From NCBI GenBank assembly GCA_035473115.1, contig DATION010000002.1, positions 105,368-169,367 on the forward strand: a DNA stretch of 64,000 nucleotides, read 5' to 3'. Every line of letters starts with the position of its first letter. Within the stretch, counting starts at the first letter, position 1. Made by a program: the position numbers and the translations under genes. Below are positions 4,028 through 53,205 of this stretch, piece after piece. The DNA is from Candidatus Udaeobacter sp. Its GTDB lineage: Bacteria; Patescibacteriota; Patescibacteriia; Magasanikbacterales; GWA2-37-8. The notes below the pieces were generated by a model that worked only from the letters and a program-made list of their open reading frames with translations, was not told the DNA's origin and did not search any database.

Positions 4028-5493
4028 TCAAAACCCGTTTCGCTCCCAGCCCGACAGGCTATCTCCATGTTGGCGGACTGCGCACAGCTCTATATTCTTA
4101 TTTATTTGCCAAAAAGAATGATGGTAAATTTTTGCTGCGTATAGAAGACACTGATCGCGAACGATATGTGGCCGATGGCGTAAAAAATATTTTGGAATCT
4201 TTATTTTGGGCTGGTATTGTGCCTGACGAAGGTGTAATTCAGGAAGAAAGTGGAAAAATCGGCGAAGTTGGAAAAAATGGTCCATATACTCAATCTGAAC
4301 GCTTGCCTATTTATAAAAAATATTCCGAACAACTTTTGAGCGAAGGTCATGCTTATTATTGTTTTTGCACATCCGAAAGATTAACTCAGCTGCGTGAACA
4401 GCAAACTGCCAGAAAAATGCCCACTGGTTATGATGGGCTTTGTTTAAAAATTGATCCAACCGAAGCAAAAACCAGAGCCGAAGCCGGAGAAAAATGTGTT
4501 GTTCGTTTAAAAATGCCAAAAAGCGGTGAAACAGTTTTTACTGATATGATTCGCGGTGAAGTTCGGTTTAAAAATGAATTAGTTGATGATCAGGTATTAA
4601 TGAAATCCGATGGCTACCCAACTTATCATTTTGCGGTAGTGGTAGATGATCATTTAATGGAAATTACTCATATTATTCGCGGTGAAGAATGGATTAGCAG
4701 CGTGCCAAAACATTTACAGATTTATAAATATTTTAGTTGGGAAGTGCCGCAAATGGCGCATTTGCCTTTGTTGCTTAATCCGGATAAATCCAAACTCAGC
4801 AAACGTCAGGGAGACGTGGCCGTAGAAGATTATAGAAAAAAAGGCTATCTGCCAGAAGCTCTACTTAATTTTGTGGCTTTTTTGGGTTGGAATCCAGGTA
4901 CGGAAAAAGAAATTTATTCTTTGGAGGAATTAGTTCAGGATTTTGATTTTTCTAAAGTTGGAAAAACCGGAGCAGTATTTAATATAGAAAAACTGGATTG
5001 GTACAATAAACAATATATTAAAAATTTATCTAATAAAGAATTGGTAGAAAAAGCTAAGTCATGGCTGCAAGAAACGGGAATTGATGTAAAGTCTGAAATT
5101 ATTGAAAAAGCTGTCAGTTTGGAAAGAGAAAGAATTACAACCTTGTCAGAATTACCAGAAGCCATTAAATTTGTATTTGAATTGCCGAATTATCATTCTG
5201 ATTTATTGGTTTGGAAAAAGAGCGATATTGAAGAAGTAAAGAAAATTTTACCAATTTTTGTAGAATTTGTTGATACAATTGGTATTCAAGATTGGAATAA
5301 AGAAACCCTTAGCCAAAAGATAGGGGAATGGTCCGAACAAAATGGTTTTTCCAGAGGTTCAGTGCTTTGGCCGCTGCGTGTTGCTTTATCCGGTCAAGAA
5401 AATTCTCCAGGCCCATTTGAGATCGCGGAAGTTTTGGGAAAAGAAGAAACTTTAAACAGGCTTCAGTTGGCAGTTAAAAAATTAAGCATCTAG
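4024..5493 (+). CDS. gltX: Glutamyl-tRNA synthetase
   Basis: Class I HIGH region (RFAPSPTGYLHVGG) and KLSKR (KMSKS-like) motif. Length is typical. Confidence 0.9.
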   Translation: MIKTRFAPSPTGYLHVGGLRTALYSYLFAKKNDGKFLLRIEDTDRERYVADGVKNILESLFWAGIVPDEGVIQEESGKIGEVGKNGPYTQSERLPIYKKYSEQLLSEGHAYYCFCTSERLTQLREQQTARKMPTGYDGLCLKIDPTEAKTRAEAGEKCVVRLKMPKSGETVFTDMIRGEVRFKNELVDDQVLMKSDGYPTYHFAVVVDDHLMEITHIIRGEEWISSVPKHLQIYKYFSWEVPQMAHLPLLLNPDKSKLSKRQGDVAVEDYRKKGYLPEALLNFVAFLGWNPGTEKEIYSLEELVQDFDFSKVGKTGAVFNIEKLDWYNKQYIKNLSNKELVEKAKSWLQETGIDVKSEIIEKAVSLERERITTLSELPEAIKFVFELPNYHSDLLVWKKSDIEEVKKILPIFVEFVDTIGIQDWNKETLSQKIGEWSEQNGFSRGSVLWPLRVALSGQENSPGPFEIAEVLGKEETLNRLQLAVKKLSI

Positions 5494-13952: not shown

Positions 13953-13979
13953 TTGACTTTTTATTATAAATTTTATAAT
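13953..13979 (+). promoter_or_regulatory. Putative promoter of GC-rich cassette 1 (TTGACT-N15-TATAAT)
   Basis: Sequence match. It is followed by AGGAGG at 13988-13993, 9 nt before the ATG at 14003. Confidence 0.35.
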
Positions 13980-14002
13980 CTCTAATAAGGAGGATATGAC
14001 AA

Positions 14003-14302
14003 ATGAGAGATTATTCACGTGGAGAGGCCAGAAACATTCGACGCCTAAAGGCTGGGTTGGTCCGAACGCCTAGCGGAAAATTGGTTCGGACGAAAAATCC
14101 AGTCACCAGGAGGCGCTCGCGCTCAAAAAACAATGGCTATTGGGAGTGTACCGCTATGGTGAGCAGGAGAGCCGCTTCAACCTGGTCATCGGGCTTTGTT
14201 CATCACTACCTGCCGTGCTTTACTCGGAACAGCGCTCAAGAAGCAAGGTGTTCCAGCTGCAAACAGCCCAGAACAGCGCGCAATGAGATCAAGTTTGATT
14301 AA
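14003..14302 (+). CDS. GC-rich orphan small ORF 1 (99 aa, very basic, Arg-rich); could instead be a structured ncRNA
   Basis: Local GC about 50 % against about 33 % for the genome. Strong Shine-Dalgarno site and own promoter. No family recognised, and its codon usage is atypical for this genome. Confidence 0.35.
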   Translation: MRDYSRGEARNIRRLKAGLVRTPSGKLVRTKNPVTRRRSRSKNNGYWECTAMVSRRAASTWSSGFVHHYLPCFTRNSAQEARCSSCKQPRTARNEIKFD

Positions 14303-14338
14303 GAACGCCTAGTAAGAGTTGTGCGTTCTTACAGCAAA

Positions 14339-14410
14339 AACCATTCGTAGTTCAACCTTAGTTCTTAAAATAAGAATTGAGGTGGAGGATAGTTTACGAA
14401 TGGTTTTTTG
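14339..14410 (+). terminator. Hairpin terminator of cassette 1
   Basis: 11-bp stem (AACCATTCGTA / TACGAATGGTT) enclosing a nested TTCTTA-AAA-TAAGAA hairpin and followed by a run of six Ts. A second hairpin, AGAACGC...GCGTTCT, lies at 14303-14329. Confidence 0.5.
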
Positions 14411-14506
14411 TTTTGAGTGTTATTATTATTTTTTCTAATTGAAATATATTGCAAAAGCATTTATACTATAGCTTAAAGTAGGTTTTTAAAGTAAATAAAG
14501 TAAATT

Positions 14507-47219: not shown

Positions 47220-47450
47220 ATGGCCACAAGCCATAAAGTCGAGAGTTTCGACTTCGAGGCAGCAGAGCCTGGAGCTGAACAAGATTCTCACACTCCTGAA
47301 CAACACCTAAACCTGACAATCTTGTGCGACCTTGCAGATCGCAAGGCACCTATAGCTGAAATCAGGGTCTATACAGATCCCAGAGCAGCGCATATTTCCC
47401 ATTGCGAAAAGTGCCAAAATGCCCTAGGCTTCTACAAAATTTCGTTTTAG
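47220..47450 (+). CDS. GC-rich orphan small ORF 2 (76 aa, acidic)
   Basis: About 48 % GC. Strong Shine-Dalgarno site. An 8-bp stem hairpin (AGTATGCT...AGCATACT) overlaps the stop. No recognised family. Confidence 0.3.
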   Translation: MATSHKVESFDFEAAEPGAEQDSHTPEQHLNLTILCDLADRKAPIAEIRVYTDPRAAHISHCEKCQNALGFYKISF

Positions 47451-49780: not shown

Positions 49781-51145
49781 CTATATTTCAAACTCTCTAA
49801 AATATTTTCTAAATCTATGATTATTCATCTCCATTCTATGAAAATATTTATCCGAAAACCCATCTTTATTTGAATGTTTTAGCAGCACCATATAAGAATC
49901 ATTCATTCTTTCAAAAAAACGTATCAAAAAACTCATCTGCTCTTTTGTTAATTTTCCACTATCCACAGTTTCCATAAATCTTCTTTGCATTCGTTCTTGT
50001 AGCATAAACAACTCTTCAAGCATCATCGGATGAGGTCTTTCTTCATGAGAAAAATGTTCTATAAAGTGCAGAACTCGTTCCTGGTTTCTATTAAATTCAA
50101 TAAAAAAATCATCATCTAAATTTAACTGTTTAACAAGATGCTGTAACTCTTCGCCTAACATTCCTTGCTGCATGATAAACTCATGAAATAAAGGATGTTT
50201 AAAATCTCTTGAGTGTAAGATCTTATGAACAACATAATTTCTTTCTTCTAAAGATTTAACTCTTTTGACATCTTGGAGGATTTTTTTATCAACTATTTGT
50301 TTGTAATACTCACCAGCAAGTTCTAAAAATTTTTCTGGGTCATACATATGAAAATCTACACCCGCCTTATCTTGAATTTCTTTTTTTAATTCATGCCTAG
50401 GCCCTATAACAGTTCCAGATTGTATCCACCACCAATCTTCTTTTTTATCTCTAGTAATAAAAATTATCGGTTTTTTTAACTCATTGGCCTTATCAATAAT
50501 TTGGTACCATAAAATCAAATCACCATATTCACGTTCATTATCTTTTGATGCATCTTTATAACCAGGAGGAACGTCATTTGAATATCTTTCTTTTCCTTCT
50601 TTATATATTTCGTCAAGTTTTTCCTTAAGGTATTCTTCACCAATACTATCTTTAAAAATCTTATTTAATTCACCTAAAATATTATCTTTATTAACCCAAT
50701 CTGGATGAGATTTTTCATTTTTATTAATACTGAGAGTAATCTTTTTTAAACAGCTATCTAATTCATTGCTAATTTCTTTAAGGTCTAAAAATGGATGTTC
50801 CTTGTGATACTTATCCTCAATTTTCTTTTGAGCATCCTTAATAGAGGTGTCTAAAATAGACCTTATTTTAGAGTAAGAATTTTTTAAATCAGCTATTTGA
50901 ATTATTCTTCTTTTATGAAACTCTAAGCCCACTTGATGCGGGATCCATATTCTATTTTCATCTTTAATTTTTTTAAGAATACCAATATATTTATCCGAGG
51001 TAGTATTGTTATACCTGTACAAGTCAAGCAAAACATTCGTGTCAAACACAAATACACACTCCTGCCATATTTTTTTTATTTCAGCATCAGAATACTTATA
51101 AAATTCTTTAAACTTATTCTTCATACGGCTTTTCATTAATAACAT
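49781..51145 (-). CDS. Orphan protein with an N-terminal PIN-like nuclease domain and a roughly 280-aa helical C-terminal region
   Basis: The VFVFDTNVLLDLYRY start is typical of PIN domains. Later ...IFITRD... provides further acidic residues. The C-terminal half is not recognisable. Confidence 0.5.
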   Translation of the reverse strand: MLLMKSRMKNKFKEFYKYSDAEIKKIWQECVFVFDTNVLLDLYRYNNTTSDKYIGILKKIKDENRIWIPHQVGLEFHKRRIIQIADLKNSYSKIRSILDTSIKDAQKKIEDKYHKEHPFLDLKEISNELDSCLKKITLSINKNEKSHPDWVNKDNILGELNKIFKDSIGEEYLKEKLDEIYKEGKERYSNDVPPGYKDASKDNEREYGDLILWYQIIDKANELKKPIIFITRDKKEDWWWIQSGTVIGPRHELKKEIQDKAGVDFHMYDPEKFLELAGEYYKQIVDKKILQDVKRVKSLEERNYVVHKILHSRDFKHPLFHEFIMQQGMLGEELQHLVKQLNLDDDFFIEFNRNQERVLHFIEHFSHEERPHPMMLEELFMLQERMQRRFMETVDSGKLTKEQMSFLIRFFERMNDSYMVLLKHSNKDGFSDKYFHRMEMNNHRFRKYFREFEI

Positions 51146-51598: not shown

Positions 51599-52030
51599 TT
51601 ATTTAATTGCTTGTTGAAGTGCTTGTTCTAATTTTTGCGGCTCATCGGTGCCAATCCGGTATATTTTTCCATTCTTCATAATAATTTCTACGGCATCAAA
51701 ACCGGAAACATTAAAAATCCAGGTTGTTGGATTTAATTTTAATCTTATCCCCCAGCCATAATACCATTTATTTTTTACCGCTTTAGCTGTTGCTATTTCT
51801 TTAAGAACAAATTTTTTGCTAAATAAACCAAAGGCTATATGAAGATGACTGTCATCTATTGTTACAGTAAGCGAAATAAACGAAACTAAAATTAGCAAAA
51901 CAATAAGCATCACGCTAGTAAATCCCGAAAAATCAAAGGCTCTTTGTAGTAAAAAAAATAGATAAAGCGCTGCTATGCCAATGGCGGCAAACAATATTAC
52001 CTTTCCGATCTGGGTGTGCTTGTAGAGCAT
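51599..52030 (-). CDS. Hypothetical membrane protein (two N-terminal transmembrane helices plus a small soluble domain)
   Basis: Hydrophobic N-terminal segments. No family recognised. Confidence 0.4.
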   Translation of the reverse strand: MLYKHTQIGKVILFAAIGIAALYLFFLLQRAFDFSGFTSVMLIVLLILVSFISLTVTIDDSHLHIAFGLFSKKFVLKEIATAKAVKNKWYYGWGIRLKLNPTTWIFNVSGFDAVEIIMKNGKIYRIGTDEPQKLEQALQQAIK

Positions 52031-52107
52031 AAAAAAATTAGATAAATAACTATATTATTATACCAATTTTGGCTTTTTAAGACAAACAAATTCTCTACCC
52101 TCGAGGC

Positions 52108-52136
52108 TTTACAAAAAGGCCTTTTTGTGGTAGACT
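52108..52136 (+). promoter_or_regulatory. Putative promoter of GC-rich cassette 3 (TTTACA-N17-TAGACT)
   Basis: Sequence match. A GGAGGG Shine-Dalgarno site lies 5 nt before the ATG at 52183. Confidence 0.35.
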
Positions 52137-52182
52137 ATTCGCACTCTGAACAACAAACCAAACCAACCTGCGGAGGGCTAGC

Positions 52183-52479
52183 ATGAGCCAAAATCTTGAT
52201 CTGGGCGTACGCCTCGATCTTGCGGCCATGCTTTCCCAGCGCGCCGCAACAAACGATCCCAAGAGCCGAATCAGCTCAAGGGAGATAGCTCGCGAAGAAG
52301 CTCGCGAGTATGACAAATTGAGGAATTCTGCAGAACGAGCCAGCATGGATCTTTATGACAGCCAGGCAACGTTTGCAGATCCGGAACATCGAGAACTATT
52401 GAGAAAAAAACAAAGGGCAGACTATGCCTTAGACGTTTTTCTCAGAAACCTAATCTCGAAAAAGCGGCCTGGTAAATAG
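52183..52479 (+). CDS. GC-rich orphan small ORF 3 (98 aa, charged, predicted helical)
   Basis: About 52 % GC. Strong Shine-Dalgarno site and own promoter. It is followed by hairpins and a terminator. No recognised family. Confidence 0.4.
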   Translation: MSQNLDLGVRLDLAAMLSQRAATNDPKSRISSREIAREEAREYDKLRNSAERASMDLYDSQATFADPEHRELLRKKQRADYALDVFLRNLISKKRPGK

Positions 52480-52505
52480 CGAGAGCAATCTCGCTACCGT
52501 CGGCG

Positions 52506-52550
52506 GCCCGTTGCCTGGAGACCAAAATCCAGCACGGGCCTTTGTTATTT
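52506..52550 (+). terminator. Hairpin terminator of cassette 3
   Basis: GGCCCGT...ACGGGCC stem (7 bp) followed by TTTGTTATTT. An additional AGCGAG-AGCAAT-CTCGCT hairpin lies at 52478-52495. Confidence 0.5.
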
Positions 52551-52569
52551 ATAAACACAACAGTTTTGC

Positions 52570-53205
52570 TCAATCTCCAATTTTATAAAGGATGTTATTT
52601 TGTATATAAACCGGCATTTCCCAATCCAAATGATCGGTCCATGGATTATAGATCCATTTTTCTAAATCTTTATTTATTCTAACAATTCTAGCTGGTTCTC
52701 CAAATGCGTTCCGCACTTTTTCAACGCTCCAACCGCGCAAATCATTTCCAACATGACCAATTAAACTACCTCTCCTGTCTGTTTGCATTTTGATTTGTAT
52801 TTTTTGACTAAGATTTTCATAATTTTTACCAAAAGCATAAAAATCTTTTTCCCAAAGATAAACCGTTCTCCCAGCCGTTATCGTAGCTCCAGGCACAAAC
52901 GGATCTTCTCCTAAATCAAATCTAATCTCTCTTTTATAGGGAGGAGCAATAAATAAAAAAATAAAAACAAAAAATAAAATAATCGAAAAAATAATATATT
53001 TCCCAATTATTTTAATATCTAATACCTTCAAAACTGCTAATCTAAACCAATATATCCAATTTAAAAGTATAGACAAAATAAATACAATAAAATTAAATTT
53101 CCAGTTATAGCCTTCTTTAGCCGCAGCAAAAGAAGCAATTAAAAAGCAAGCTCCTATGAAAGTTATTATTAATGATGGTAAAAAATATAGATATTTCTTA
53201 TTCAT
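52570..53205 (-). CDS. Hypothetical membrane protein
   Basis: Three N-terminal transmembrane helices and a C-terminal soluble domain. No family recognised. Confidence 0.4.
   Translation of the reverse strand: MNKKYLYFLPSLIITFIGACFLIASFAAAKEGYNWKFNFIVFILSILLNWIYWFRLAVLKVLDIKIIGKYIIFSIILFFVFIFLFIAPPYKREIRFDLGEDPFVPGATITAGRTVYLWEKDFYAFGKNYENLSQKIQIKMQTDRRGSLIGHVGNDLRGWSVEKVRNAFGEPARIVRINKDLEKWIYNPWTDHLDWEMPVYIQNNILYKIGD

What the first reader, a model, noticed from the sequence alone, without database searches (positions are those of the whole stretch)
52108..52550. GC-rich autonomous cassette 3, with the best-formed promoter, RBS, ORF and terminator
TTTACA-N17-TAGACT precedes GGAGGG and, 5 nt later, a 98-aa charged helical ORF (MSQNLDLGVRLDLAAMLSQRAATNDPKSRISSREIAREEAREYDKLRNSAERAS...) at about 52 % GC. 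It is followed by two hairpins and a GGCCCGT...ACGGGCC-TTTGTTATTT terminator. This is the third instance of the same pattern: a foreign-composition, self-contained small-protein gene on the + strand placed between native minus-strand genes. Recurrence of this architecture with unrelated cargo suggests a class of acquired small-protein genes. Possibilities include toxins or antitoxins, anti-defence proteins or host-interaction factors, but this is speculation.
Basis: partly seen in the sequence, partly recalled or inferred. Interest (0 to 1): 0.62.

Follow-up and report, generated by a model that had tools for sequence, protein, structure and literature searches.

The report
Fast-evolving orphan small-protein gene
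The GC-rich island is a real, self-contained gene for a 98-residue helical protein found in only two related groundwater (Patescibacteria-like) genomes; it is inherited in place rather than freshly imported, its protein sequence changes very fast, and its promoter, leader, ribosome-site hairpin and terminator are conserved.

Summary
A promoter-like site, GGAGGG, a 98-codon ORF (52183-52479) and a hairpin/T-tract terminator sit on the + strand between minus-strand genes, in a GC island (49% against 37%).

I first suspected a structured RNA: fold z = -6.2, and no protein homologue among clusters representing about 15 billion proteins. No Rfam family matches. A syntenic relative (L030; neighbour proteins 84-92% identical) then showed an orthologue at the same position. 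It is also 98 codons, 29% identical (pairwise E 2e-8; core alone z 5.4), with codon position 2 best conserved. So it codes for protein.

That orthologue is only 41% GC, and no donor, phage or plasmid homologue exists. The "recently acquired foreign gene" reading is therefore not supported.

The promoter (82%) and terminator (85%) are far better conserved than neutral sites (~45%). In both genomes a 20-21 nt pure A/C leader precedes a stem that buries the SD and AUG (P(unpaired) 0.26 against 0.50±0.13 for native genes; one compensatory pair). This suggests standby-type translational control.

Relatives carry unrelated small stand-alone genes in the same slot, one behind a near-identical promoter. 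The "class with swapped cargo" idea is therefore partly supported.

Biological role is unknown. Interest is modest.

The parts
52103..52123 (+). Short palindrome/hairpin (GAGGCTTTACAAAAAGGCCTT) overlapping the -35 box. Its core CCTTTACAAAAAGG is conserved in L030. It may be an operator or merely part of the promoter.
   Evidence: (I20)
52108..52136 (+). Sigma-70-type promoter: TTTACA, 17-nt spacer, TG-n-TAGACT.
   Evidence: 9/12 plus TG. 82% identical to L030. The module occurs only 4 times in 914 kb and never in shuffles.
52143..52168 (+). Predicted unpaired 5' leader containing a 20-nt pure A/C tract (52149-52168). Proposed ribosome standby site.
   Evidence: Unpaired in the MFE and centroid folds. 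Only 2 A/C-only runs of at least 20 nt occur in the window, both strands counted. L030 has a 21-nt tract at the same place.
52169..52243 (+). Stem-loop that sequesters the SD (52172-52177) and the AUG (52183-52185). They pair with codons ~15-21: CAUGCU at 52227-52232 and CCC at 52235-52237.
   Evidence: P(unpaired) over -14..+3 is 0.257 in the window and 0.266 in L030, against 0.495 +/- 0.134 for 44 native sites, of which 1 is as low. One compensatory G-C to C-G pair and one C-G to U-G change.
52183..52479 (+). 98-aa ORF, pI 9.6, GRAVY -0.93, with no Cys or Trp. Predicted helices are 7-22, 26-59 and 67-94.
   Evidence: Orthologue in L030 at 4541-4837(-).
52477..52496 (+). Perfect 8-bp hairpin with a GCAA tetraloop, overlapping the stop codon. 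It is specific to the window and absent from L030.
52505..52550 (+). Intrinsic terminator: compound hairpin GGCCCGU..ACGGGCC followed by UUUGUUAUUU. It probably also ends the convergent gene.
   Evidence: 85% identical to L030, with one compensatory and one wobble change in the stem.

Best explanation
This is a monocistronic gene that is taxonomically restricted: it has been found in two related Patescibacteria-type genomes so far. It encodes a ~98-residue, soluble, basic protein predicted to form three helices.

It is inherited vertically at a fixed position. It is transcribed divergently from a small membrane-protein gene (mem143) and lies inside a variable islet between a sulfatase-family gene and transketolase.

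The protein body evolves almost neutrally (dN about 0.9; 22% identity in codons 25-98) but keeps its length, its frame and a position-2 conservation signal. The expression signals are under much stronger constraint.

I infer the following expression mechanism. Transcription starts about 40 nt upstream of the AUG. The mRNA folds so that the SD and AUG are paired with codons ~15-21. A single-stranded pure A/C leader immediately 5' of this stem serves as a ribosome standby site. Synthesis is therefore limited or conditional rather than constitutive. A strong hairpin/U-tract terminator ends the transcript.

Shown here: the ORF, orthology, coding-type substitution pattern, conservation of promoter and terminator, and predicted TIR occlusion in both orthologues.

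Inferred: standby-type translational control.

Guess: the fast divergence reflects either a conflict or interaction role (immunity, anti-defence or partner binding) or weak constraint on a young gene.
For: - Orthologue at the same position, with the same length.
- BLASTP 29% identity and 52% positives over 95 aa, E 2e-8.
- Global alignment z 8.7. The core alone gives z 5.4-6.2, with 0 of 3000 shuffles reaching it.
- Codon-position identity in the core is 0.38/0.54/0.27. The chance that L030's diverged core stays open is 0.008.
- A chance ORF of at least 98 codons arises in 1.9% of shuffles, and in 0.34% with an SD-like motif.
- Frame 0 scores best in the codon test, and GC1/2/3 is 0.58/0.41/0.47.
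- Promoter 82% and terminator 85% identical, against 41-53% at four-fold sites of neighbouring genes.
- SD/AUG sequestration in both orthologues, in the lowest ~2% of native initiation regions, with one compensatory pair.
- A rare A/C-only leader conserved in place.
- CA-rich unstructured 5' tails are experimentally established standby sites that rescue a structured RBS (PMC5934652).
- Both transcripts fold unusually stably: z -6.2 and -3.9. The ORF body gives z -3.5 to -4.0, against -0.5 +/- 1.2 for native genes.
Against: - Only two family members exist, so covariation support rests on one compensatory pair. The paired CAUGC segment is also constrained by the conserved LAAML peptide.
- No expression data are available.
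- The AlphaFold model (pLDDT 78) is weak evidence, because the antisense 83-aa ORF also scores 73.
- Near-neutral evolution of most of the protein is also what a marginally functional proto-gene would show.
- The promoter match alone is no better than chance.
- The gene is missing from the other ~15 fetched relatives in which both borders of the slot are visible.
Confidence: 0.7

Rival explanations
1. It is a structured non-coding RNA gene, and the ORF is accidental. GC-rich islands in AT-rich genomes are often RNA genes.
For: - Fold z -6.2 on the + strand, and -4.0 for the ORF body, which is outside the range of 40 native controls.
- A GCAA-capped perfect hairpin is present.
- There is no protein homologue in very large databases.
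- The codon-usage frame signal is only about half the native one.
Against: - No Rfam family matches, even at E<=10, and there is no tRNA or tmRNA.
- The orthologue keeps exactly 98 codons despite ~44% DNA identity in the core (P about 0.008 by chance).
- The proteins align significantly, and codon position 2 is the most conserved.
- An SD at the correct spacing is present in both orthologues.
- The GCAA hairpin is absent from L030.
Confidence: 0.05
2. It is a recently acquired foreign gene cassette: a mobile, self-contained small gene dropped between native genes.
For: - GC 49% against 37%, with C3 raised and T3 lowered.
- It lies in an islet whose content differs in almost every relative and is empty in L006 and L008.
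- Unrelated cargo sits behind a near-identical promoter in L009.
- It is positionally equivalent to a family-A gene in L026.
Against: - The orthologue in L030 sits at the same place with conserved flanks and only 41% GC.
- No homologue exists in metagenome, viral, phage or plasmid collections.
- No meaningful flanking repeats are present. No tRNA gene is present in the window.
- The GC3 excess is only ~2.3 SD.
- Family A, the GC3-rich comparator, is itself restricted to this lineage (10 clusters). High GC there is a sustained property and not a donor signature.
Confidence: 0.12
3. It is a young, barely functional proto-gene: an expressed ORF drifting nearly neutrally, with no specific role yet.
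For: - Core dN is about 0.9 with saturated dS.
- It is restricted to two genomes.
- The fold is simple and all-helical, matching only generic hairpins.
- Orphan bacterial smORFs commonly fold as simple alpha-helical proteins (bioRxiv 10.1101/2023.08.08.552426).
Against: - Length and frame are preserved.
- Position 2 is more conserved than positions 1 and 3.
- There is a conserved N-terminal motif.
- Promoter, leader tract, TIR hairpin and terminator are strongly conserved. This indicates that selection maintains regulated expression.
Confidence: 0.2
4. It is the toxin of an RNA-controlled (type I-like) toxin-antitoxin module, kept silent by its folded mRNA.
For: The sequestered SD and AUG, the upstream single-stranded tract and the highly structured mRNA resemble tisB and zorO-type toxin mRNAs.
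Against: - The protein is 98 aa, hydrophilic (GRAVY -0.93) and has no transmembrane segment.
- No antisense promoter-like site lies within or next to the 5' region.
- There are no PADLOC or Pfam toxin hits.
Confidence: 0.05

Closest known systems
Taxonomically restricted (orphan) bacterial small-protein genes, e.g. the alpha-helical smORF proteins of Apilactobacillus kunkeei (bioRxiv 10.1101/2023.08.08.552426)
   Same: It is short and has no homologues outside very close relatives. The predicted fold is simple and alpha-helical. It is located among conserved housekeeping genes.
   Different: Here an orthologue pair shows strongly conserved expression signals and a conserved structure at the translation initiation region. 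That argues for regulated function and against mere emergence. The host is an uncultivated Patescibacteria-type lineage.
Ribosome-standby translation initiation (MS2 coat cistron; tisB +42 mRNA; synthetic CA-tail constructs, PMC5934652, PMC7708055)
   Same: A stable stem-loop buries the SD and AUG. A single-stranded C/A-rich tract lies immediately upstream.
   Different: The evidence here is purely computational. The anti-SD lies inside the coding region. No processing step or antisense RNA is evident. The product is not a membrane toxin.
Integron gene cassettes / other cassette-type accessory small genes
   Same: Small ORFs with unrelated 'cargo' occupy one genomic slot in one orientation, each ending in a GC-rich imperfect palindrome.
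   Different: Each gene has its own promoter. No cassette array was seen in the window. An attC site and an integrase were not specifically searched for. The 3' palindrome is followed by a T-tract and behaves as a terminator. ORF98 is orthologous in place in two genomes.
Slot 'family A' small proteins of related genomes (alignment A1; L005, L009, L010, L012, L026)
   Same: Same slot, same orientation and a similar length (98-115 aa). Each has its own TTGACA/TATAAT-type promoter, which in L009 is 24/29 identical, and a GGCCC...GGGCC terminator. Both are fast evolving, lineage-restricted and GC-richer than the host.
   Different: No sequence or profile similarity in any frame. Family A appears from its sequence to contain beta-strand-like segments and has far higher GC3 (0.53-0.94). 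Its initiation region is not sequestered.

Membership tests
Any Rfam RNA family (RNase P, tmRNA, 6S, SRP, large ornate RNAs) | Covariance-model match at or near the gathering score | tested here: not met
   No hits at gathering score in the 64-kb window. Only noise at E<=10 in 51950-52700. ARAGORN found nothing.
Protein-coding gene | Reading frame and length preserved in a diverged orthologue, with a coding-type substitution pattern | tested here: met
   98 against 98 codons. Core identity by codon position is 0.38/0.54/0.27. Protein alignment z is 5.4-8.7.
Known protein families (Pfam, NCBIfam, PHROGs, PADLOC, PDB sequences) | Significant profile or sequence match | tested here: not met
   Searches gave nothing significant. 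Foldseek against PDB returned only generic helical hairpins with E>0.1.
Recently horizontally acquired gene | Absent from close relatives at that position | tested here: not met
   It is present at the same position in L030, the closest relative found. It is absent from more distant relatives.
Recently horizontally acquired gene | Homologues in a plausible donor or on a mobile element | tested here: not met
   None in 5.8 billion clusters, 1.84 billion representatives, metagenome or viral contigs, phages or plasmids.
Recently horizontally acquired gene | Atypical base composition | tested here: inconclusive
   The window copy is 49% GC against 37%, with GC3 0.47 against 0.33 (about 2.3 SD). 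The L030 copy is 41% against 34%, with GC3 0.37.
Type I toxin-antitoxin toxin | Small hydrophobic, membrane-active peptide | tested here: not met
   98 aa, GRAVY -0.93, 36 charged residues.
Type I toxin-antitoxin toxin | Cis- or trans-encoded antisense RNA antitoxin | tested here: inconclusive
   No minus-strand promoter-like site lies in 52140-52480. A consensus scan cannot exclude one.
Standby-type translation initiation | RBS and AUG buried in a stable structure | tested here: met
   P(unpaired) is 0.26 in both orthologues against 0.50 +/- 0.13 for native sites. The local stem has z -3.3 and -2.7. This is prediction only.
Standby-type translation initiation | Adjacent single-stranded tract able to hold a 30S subunit | tested here: met
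   A 20-21 nt pure A/C tract is unpaired in both folds, rare in the genome and conserved in position. This is prediction only.
Standby-type translation initiation | Translation depends on the tract | not testable with these tools
   Needs reporter fusions or toeprinting.
Slot family A | Sequence or profile similarity to alignment A1 | tested here: not met
   hhalign probability 0.04%. tblastn in all frames gave only noise.
Integron gene cassette | Promoterless ORF followed by an attC site, in an array next to intI | tested here: not met
   It has its own conserved promoter. It is a single gene flanked by housekeeping or membrane genes. attC and intI were not specifically modelled.

The most novel reading that the evidence does not exclude
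The sulfatase-transketolase islet of this Patescibacteria lineage may be a recombinase-free 'expression slot'. In this reading a conserved promoter and a GC-clamp terminator frame hold unrelated small-protein genes that are exchanged between genomes: ORF98, family A with GC3 up to 0.94, and family B. The cargo would be kept GC-rich and RNA-structured in AT-rich genomes, possibly as a rapidly diversifying toolkit for episymbiont-host or phage conflict. ORF98 would be one allele class of that system, held under standby-type translational control.
Probability: 0.12. Interest if true: 0.7.

Novelty: new member of a known kind. Interest (0 to 1): 0.33.

Why it matters
Taken alone, this is one more lineage-specific small gene of unknown function, already annotated as a hypothetical protein.

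It is a useful cautionary case. A GC-rich, strongly folding, homologue-less island looked like either an RNA gene or a foreign import. One syntenic orthologue showed that it is neither.

Two aspects could interest specialists. First, it is a natural candidate for ribosome-standby control in a CPR bacterium: a pure A/C leader followed by a buried SD and AUG, conserved while the protein drifts. Second, one chromosomal slot holds unrelated, independently transcribed, GC-rich small genes behind a shared promoter type. If that pattern is general, it would say something about how ultra-small symbiotic bacteria turn over accessory small proteins.

Tried and rejected
- **Known structured RNA (RNase P, tmRNA or other).** Rfam in gathering and E-value modes and ARAGORN found nothing. 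The orthologue's coding pattern then rejected this.
- **Protein homology.** The word-indexed search found only the query itself. Exhaustive HMMER against 1.84 billion representatives added only two tandem-repeat proteins whose scores are inflated by repetition.
- **Back-translated scans** of metagenome and viral contigs found nothing. Phage and plasmid tblastn found nothing.
- **AlphaFold as a coding test.** I rejected it as decisive after the antisense-ORF control scored pLDDT 73.
- **Fold search** returned only generic helical hairpins.
- **ORF98 as a diverged or frameshifted family-A gene.** No support.
- **Excess divergence of the ORF core.** I first read the core's position-3 identity (0.27) as divergence beyond neutral, implying allelic replacement. 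I withdrew this after seeing that four-fold sites of neighbouring genes are themselves near saturation at 0.41-0.53.
- **More orthologues through mem143 homologues.** Seven further contexts (nine look-ups in all) were non-syntenic.
- **Defence-system context.** PADLOC found nothing for ORF98 or the window genes next to it.
- **Flanking direct or inverted repeats** that would suggest insertion: only short, chance-level matches.

Full report
**Observation.** The window averages 36.9% GC. The region 52060-52559 is a GC island that peaks at 55%. It lies between two minus-strand genes for small membrane proteins: mem143 (51599-52030) and mem211 (52570-53205).
- TTTACA-N17-TAGACT at 52108-52136, preceded by an extended -10 TG.
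- GGAGGG at 52172-52177, five bases before ATG 52183.
- A 98-codon ORF ending at 52479.
- An 8-bp GCAA-capped hairpin overlapping the stop codon (52477-52496).
- A compound hairpin GGCCCGT..ACGGGCC followed by TTTGTTATTT (52505-52550).

The ORF itself is 48.8% GC. Promoter-like matches in the region are not enriched over shuffles. An ATG ORF this long appears in only 1.9% of composition-matched shuffles, and in 0.34% with an SD-like motif.

**First hypothesis: an RNA gene.** In AT-rich genomes a ~400-nt GC island is often a structured RNA. The transcript also folds far better than shuffles, with z -6.2 on the sense strand and -5.3 on the antisense strand. The ORF body alone gives z -3.5 to -4.0, against -0.5±1.2 (minimum -2.8) for 40 native coding chunks. 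The protein had no homologue apart from itself in 5.8 billion clusters. In an exhaustive HMMER pass over 1.84 billion representatives, the only other hits were two tandem-repeat proteins with repeat-inflated scores. However, Rfam found nothing at gathering score or at E<=10, and ARAGORN found nothing. The codon statistics were ambiguous. Frame 0 scores best, but by half the native margin. GC1/2/3 is 0.58/0.41/0.47, a typical coding profile for a ~49% GC gene.

**Comparative data.** Anchoring on neighbouring genes brought in 29 syntenic loci. Their gene order is g269-g411-MurB-HPF-sulfatase-[variable slot]-transketolase-[slot 2]-RlmN. Several come from 0.1-µm groundwater filtrates. Named homologues of mem143 are mostly Patescibacteria. 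The window is therefore almost certainly a CPR genome, despite the bin label 'Ca. Udaeobacter'. The slot ranges from 66-89 bp (L006, L008) to 5.4 kb. None of these 29 loci contains ORF98 at the DNA or protein level.

Many of them do carry other small stand-alone genes in the same slot and orientation. Each has a TTGACA/TATAAT-type promoter and a GGCCC..GGGCC-T-run terminator, and each is GC-richer than its host.
- Family A is found in L005, L009, L010 (2 copies), L012 and L026 (4 copies). Members are 25-41% identical to the L005 member, and GC3 ranges from 0.53 to 0.94.
- Family B is found in L009, L010 and L015.
- Family A is clearly protein-coding and is itself confined to this lineage, with 10 clusters in 5.8 billion.
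- ORF98 is unrelated to family A by BLASTP, by profile comparison and in any reading frame.

**The orthologue.** Contexts of the closest mem143 homologues were then fetched. One, L030 (a 14.3-kb Logan contig), is the closest relative seen. Protein identities to the window are MurB 92%, HPF 92%, sulfatase 86-87%, transketolase 84% and mem143 63-65%. Divergently upstream of its mem143, exactly where ORF98 lies, is a 98-codon gene (L030 4541-4837, minus strand).

Evidence that the two are homologous proteins:
- BLASTP gives 29% identity and 52% positives over 95 residues, E 2e-8.
- The global score is 8.7 SD above shuffles. Residues 25-98 alone are 5.4-6.2 SD above, with 0 of 3000 shuffles reaching the score.
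- In that core the codon-position identities are 0.38/0.54/0.27. Position 2 is best conserved and position 3 is random.
- The probability that L030's diverged core would remain open by chance is about 0.008.

This settles that the ORF is translated and under protein-level selection, and it refutes a purely non-coding RNA.

L030's copy is 40.7% GC with GC3 0.37, in a 34% GC locus. The GC-richness of the window copy is therefore not a fossil of recent import. No homologue exists in metagenome, viral, phage or plasmid collections.

**What is conserved.** Four-fold sites in conserved residues of the neighbouring genes are only 41-53% identical. Against that near-saturated background, segment identities between the window and L030 are:

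| Segment | DNA identity |
|---|---|
| Promoter | 82% |
| Terminator | 85% |
| Codons 1-24 | 70% |
| ORF core (codons 25-98) | 44% |

The core's dN is about 0.9, compared with roughly 8% amino-acid difference for MurB and HPF. I first thought the core was more diverged than neutral. The four-fold-site benchmark showed that this inference was wrong, so I withdrew it.

The 29-nt promoter module occurs only four times in 914 kb and never in shuffles. The four sites are the window, L030, a weaker match in L021, and L009. In L009 it is 24/29 identical, spacer included, and drives a family-A gene. In L026 a family-A gene occupies the position divergent from mem143 that ORF98 occupies here. The slot therefore keeps a promoter and terminator frame while the coding cargo differs.

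**Likely mechanism of expression.** Folded independently, both orthologous 5' regions give the same design:
- An unpaired leader containing a pure A/C tract: 20 nt at 52149-52168, and 21 nt in L030. Such tracts are rare; the window has only two of at least 20 nt on both strands combined.
- Directly after it, a ~75-nt stem-loop (52169-52243) in which the SD and AUG pair with codons ~15-21.
- The start-codon context (A)GCAUG pairs with the internal GCC-AUG-CU of the conserved LAAML motif. In L030 a C-to-U change keeps the pair as G·U.
- In the SD stem the change GGAG-G to GGAG-C is matched by C-to-G in the partner, which is one compensatory pair.
- Mean P(unpaired) over -14..+3 is 0.257 and 0.266, against 0.495±0.134 for 44 native initiation regions. 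Only one native site is as low.
- The other cassettes and family-A genes are not occluded, with values of 0.33-0.67.

Unstructured CA-rich 5' tails have been shown experimentally to act as ribosome standby sites that rescue translation from an inaccessible RBS stem-loop (PMC5934652; tisB, PMC7708055). I therefore propose standby-type, limited or conditional translation. This is inference from predicted structures in two sequences.

**The protein.** It is basic (pI 9.6), hydrophilic (GRAVY -0.93) and lacks Cys, Trp, a signal peptide and a transmembrane segment. AlphaFold2 on the single sequence predicts helices 7-22, 26-59 and 67-94, with pLDDT 78 and pTM 0.56. The antisense 83-aa ORF also gets pLDDT 73, so this says little. 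Foldseek returns only generic helical hairpins with E>0.1. Pfam, NCBIfam, PHROGs, PADLOC and PDB sequences give nothing. The biological role is unknown. The fast divergence, together with conserved and tightly controlled expression, fits either a conflict or interaction protein or a weakly constrained young gene. Orphan bacterial smORFs often encode simple helical proteins (bioRxiv 10.1101/2023.08.08.552426).

**Verdict.** This is a real, autonomous, lineage-restricted small-protein gene. It is inherited in place, not demonstrably foreign, and not an RNA gene. Novelty: a new member of a known kind (an orphan small protein), with a plausible but untested standby-translation leader and an interesting but still anecdotal 'same frame, different cargo' context.

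Noticed in passing
window 13972-14420 (+), ORF 14003-14302: 'Cassette 1' is a GC-rich island (52%) with a 99-aa, very basic (pI 11.4) ORF that has no coding signature. Codon scores are equal in all three frames and GC2 exceeds GC1. The ORF body folds no better than shuffles (z 0), but a long hairpin plus T-run lies at 14333-14412. It has no Rfam match. It sits exactly where cumulative GC skew peaks and gene orientation converges (~14.5 kb), which is probably the replication terminus.
   Followed up: partly
window 47220-47450 (+): 'Cassette 2' is a 76-aa acidic ORF (47% GC) between RlmN and transketolase. It has weak protein homologues in the same slot in L015 (10214-10351) and L027 (1262-1417), so it is probably a real fast-evolving gene too.
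   Followed up: partly
L026 3576-3899(-), L012 7539-7835(-), and other family-A genes: Family-A small genes reach GC3 of 0.92-0.94 in genomes whose native GC3 is about 0.33-0.40. The family is nevertheless confined to this lineage (10 clusters in 5.8 billion). I have no explanation for what sustains such codon composition.
   Followed up: partly
L009 2820-3246, L010 6753-7001, L015 5013-6069: A second multi-copy small-protein family occupies the same slot in tandem copies. Its motif is GVxGCG...LxVYL..DTPE.R.AVL. It has no Pfam or PHROG match.
   Followed up: no
window 49781-51145(-); L030 5662-6666; L005 12252-12713: The same islet carries a different nuclease-type gene in each genome: PIN_8 in the window, HEPN_Apea (weak match) in L030, and a NOV_C-like protein in L005. 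L030 also retains a degraded DUF4870 remnant. The pattern looks like a small defence or accessory hot spot, but PADLOC recognises no system.
   Followed up: partly
window 51599-52030(-): The mem143 family (a bPH/DUF304-like small membrane protein) has more than 2000 clusters. They are spread over Patescibacteria and DPANN archaea (Woesearchaeota, and one Methanococcoides) at 50-60% identity, in unrelated genomic contexts. This suggests frequent transfer.
   Followed up: partly
window 52570-53205(-): mem211 (29% GC) is absent from L030. There the sulfatase stop and the ORF98-orthologue stop are only 68 nt apart and share the terminator. mem211 therefore looks like an insertion in the window lineage, or a loss in L030.
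   Followed up: no
whole window: The source bin is labelled 'Candidatus Udaeobacter sp.' (Verrucomicrobiota). Composition, gene content and all relatives point to a Patescibacteria/CPR genome, so the contig is likely mis-binned or mislabelled. No tRNA gene occurs in 64 kb.
   Followed up: partly
window 52095-52346(-): The 83-aa antisense ORF across the ORF98 5' half receives a confident-looking helical AlphaFold model (pLDDT 73). Single-sequence pLDDT therefore cannot be used to call small helical ORFs real.
   Followed up: yes
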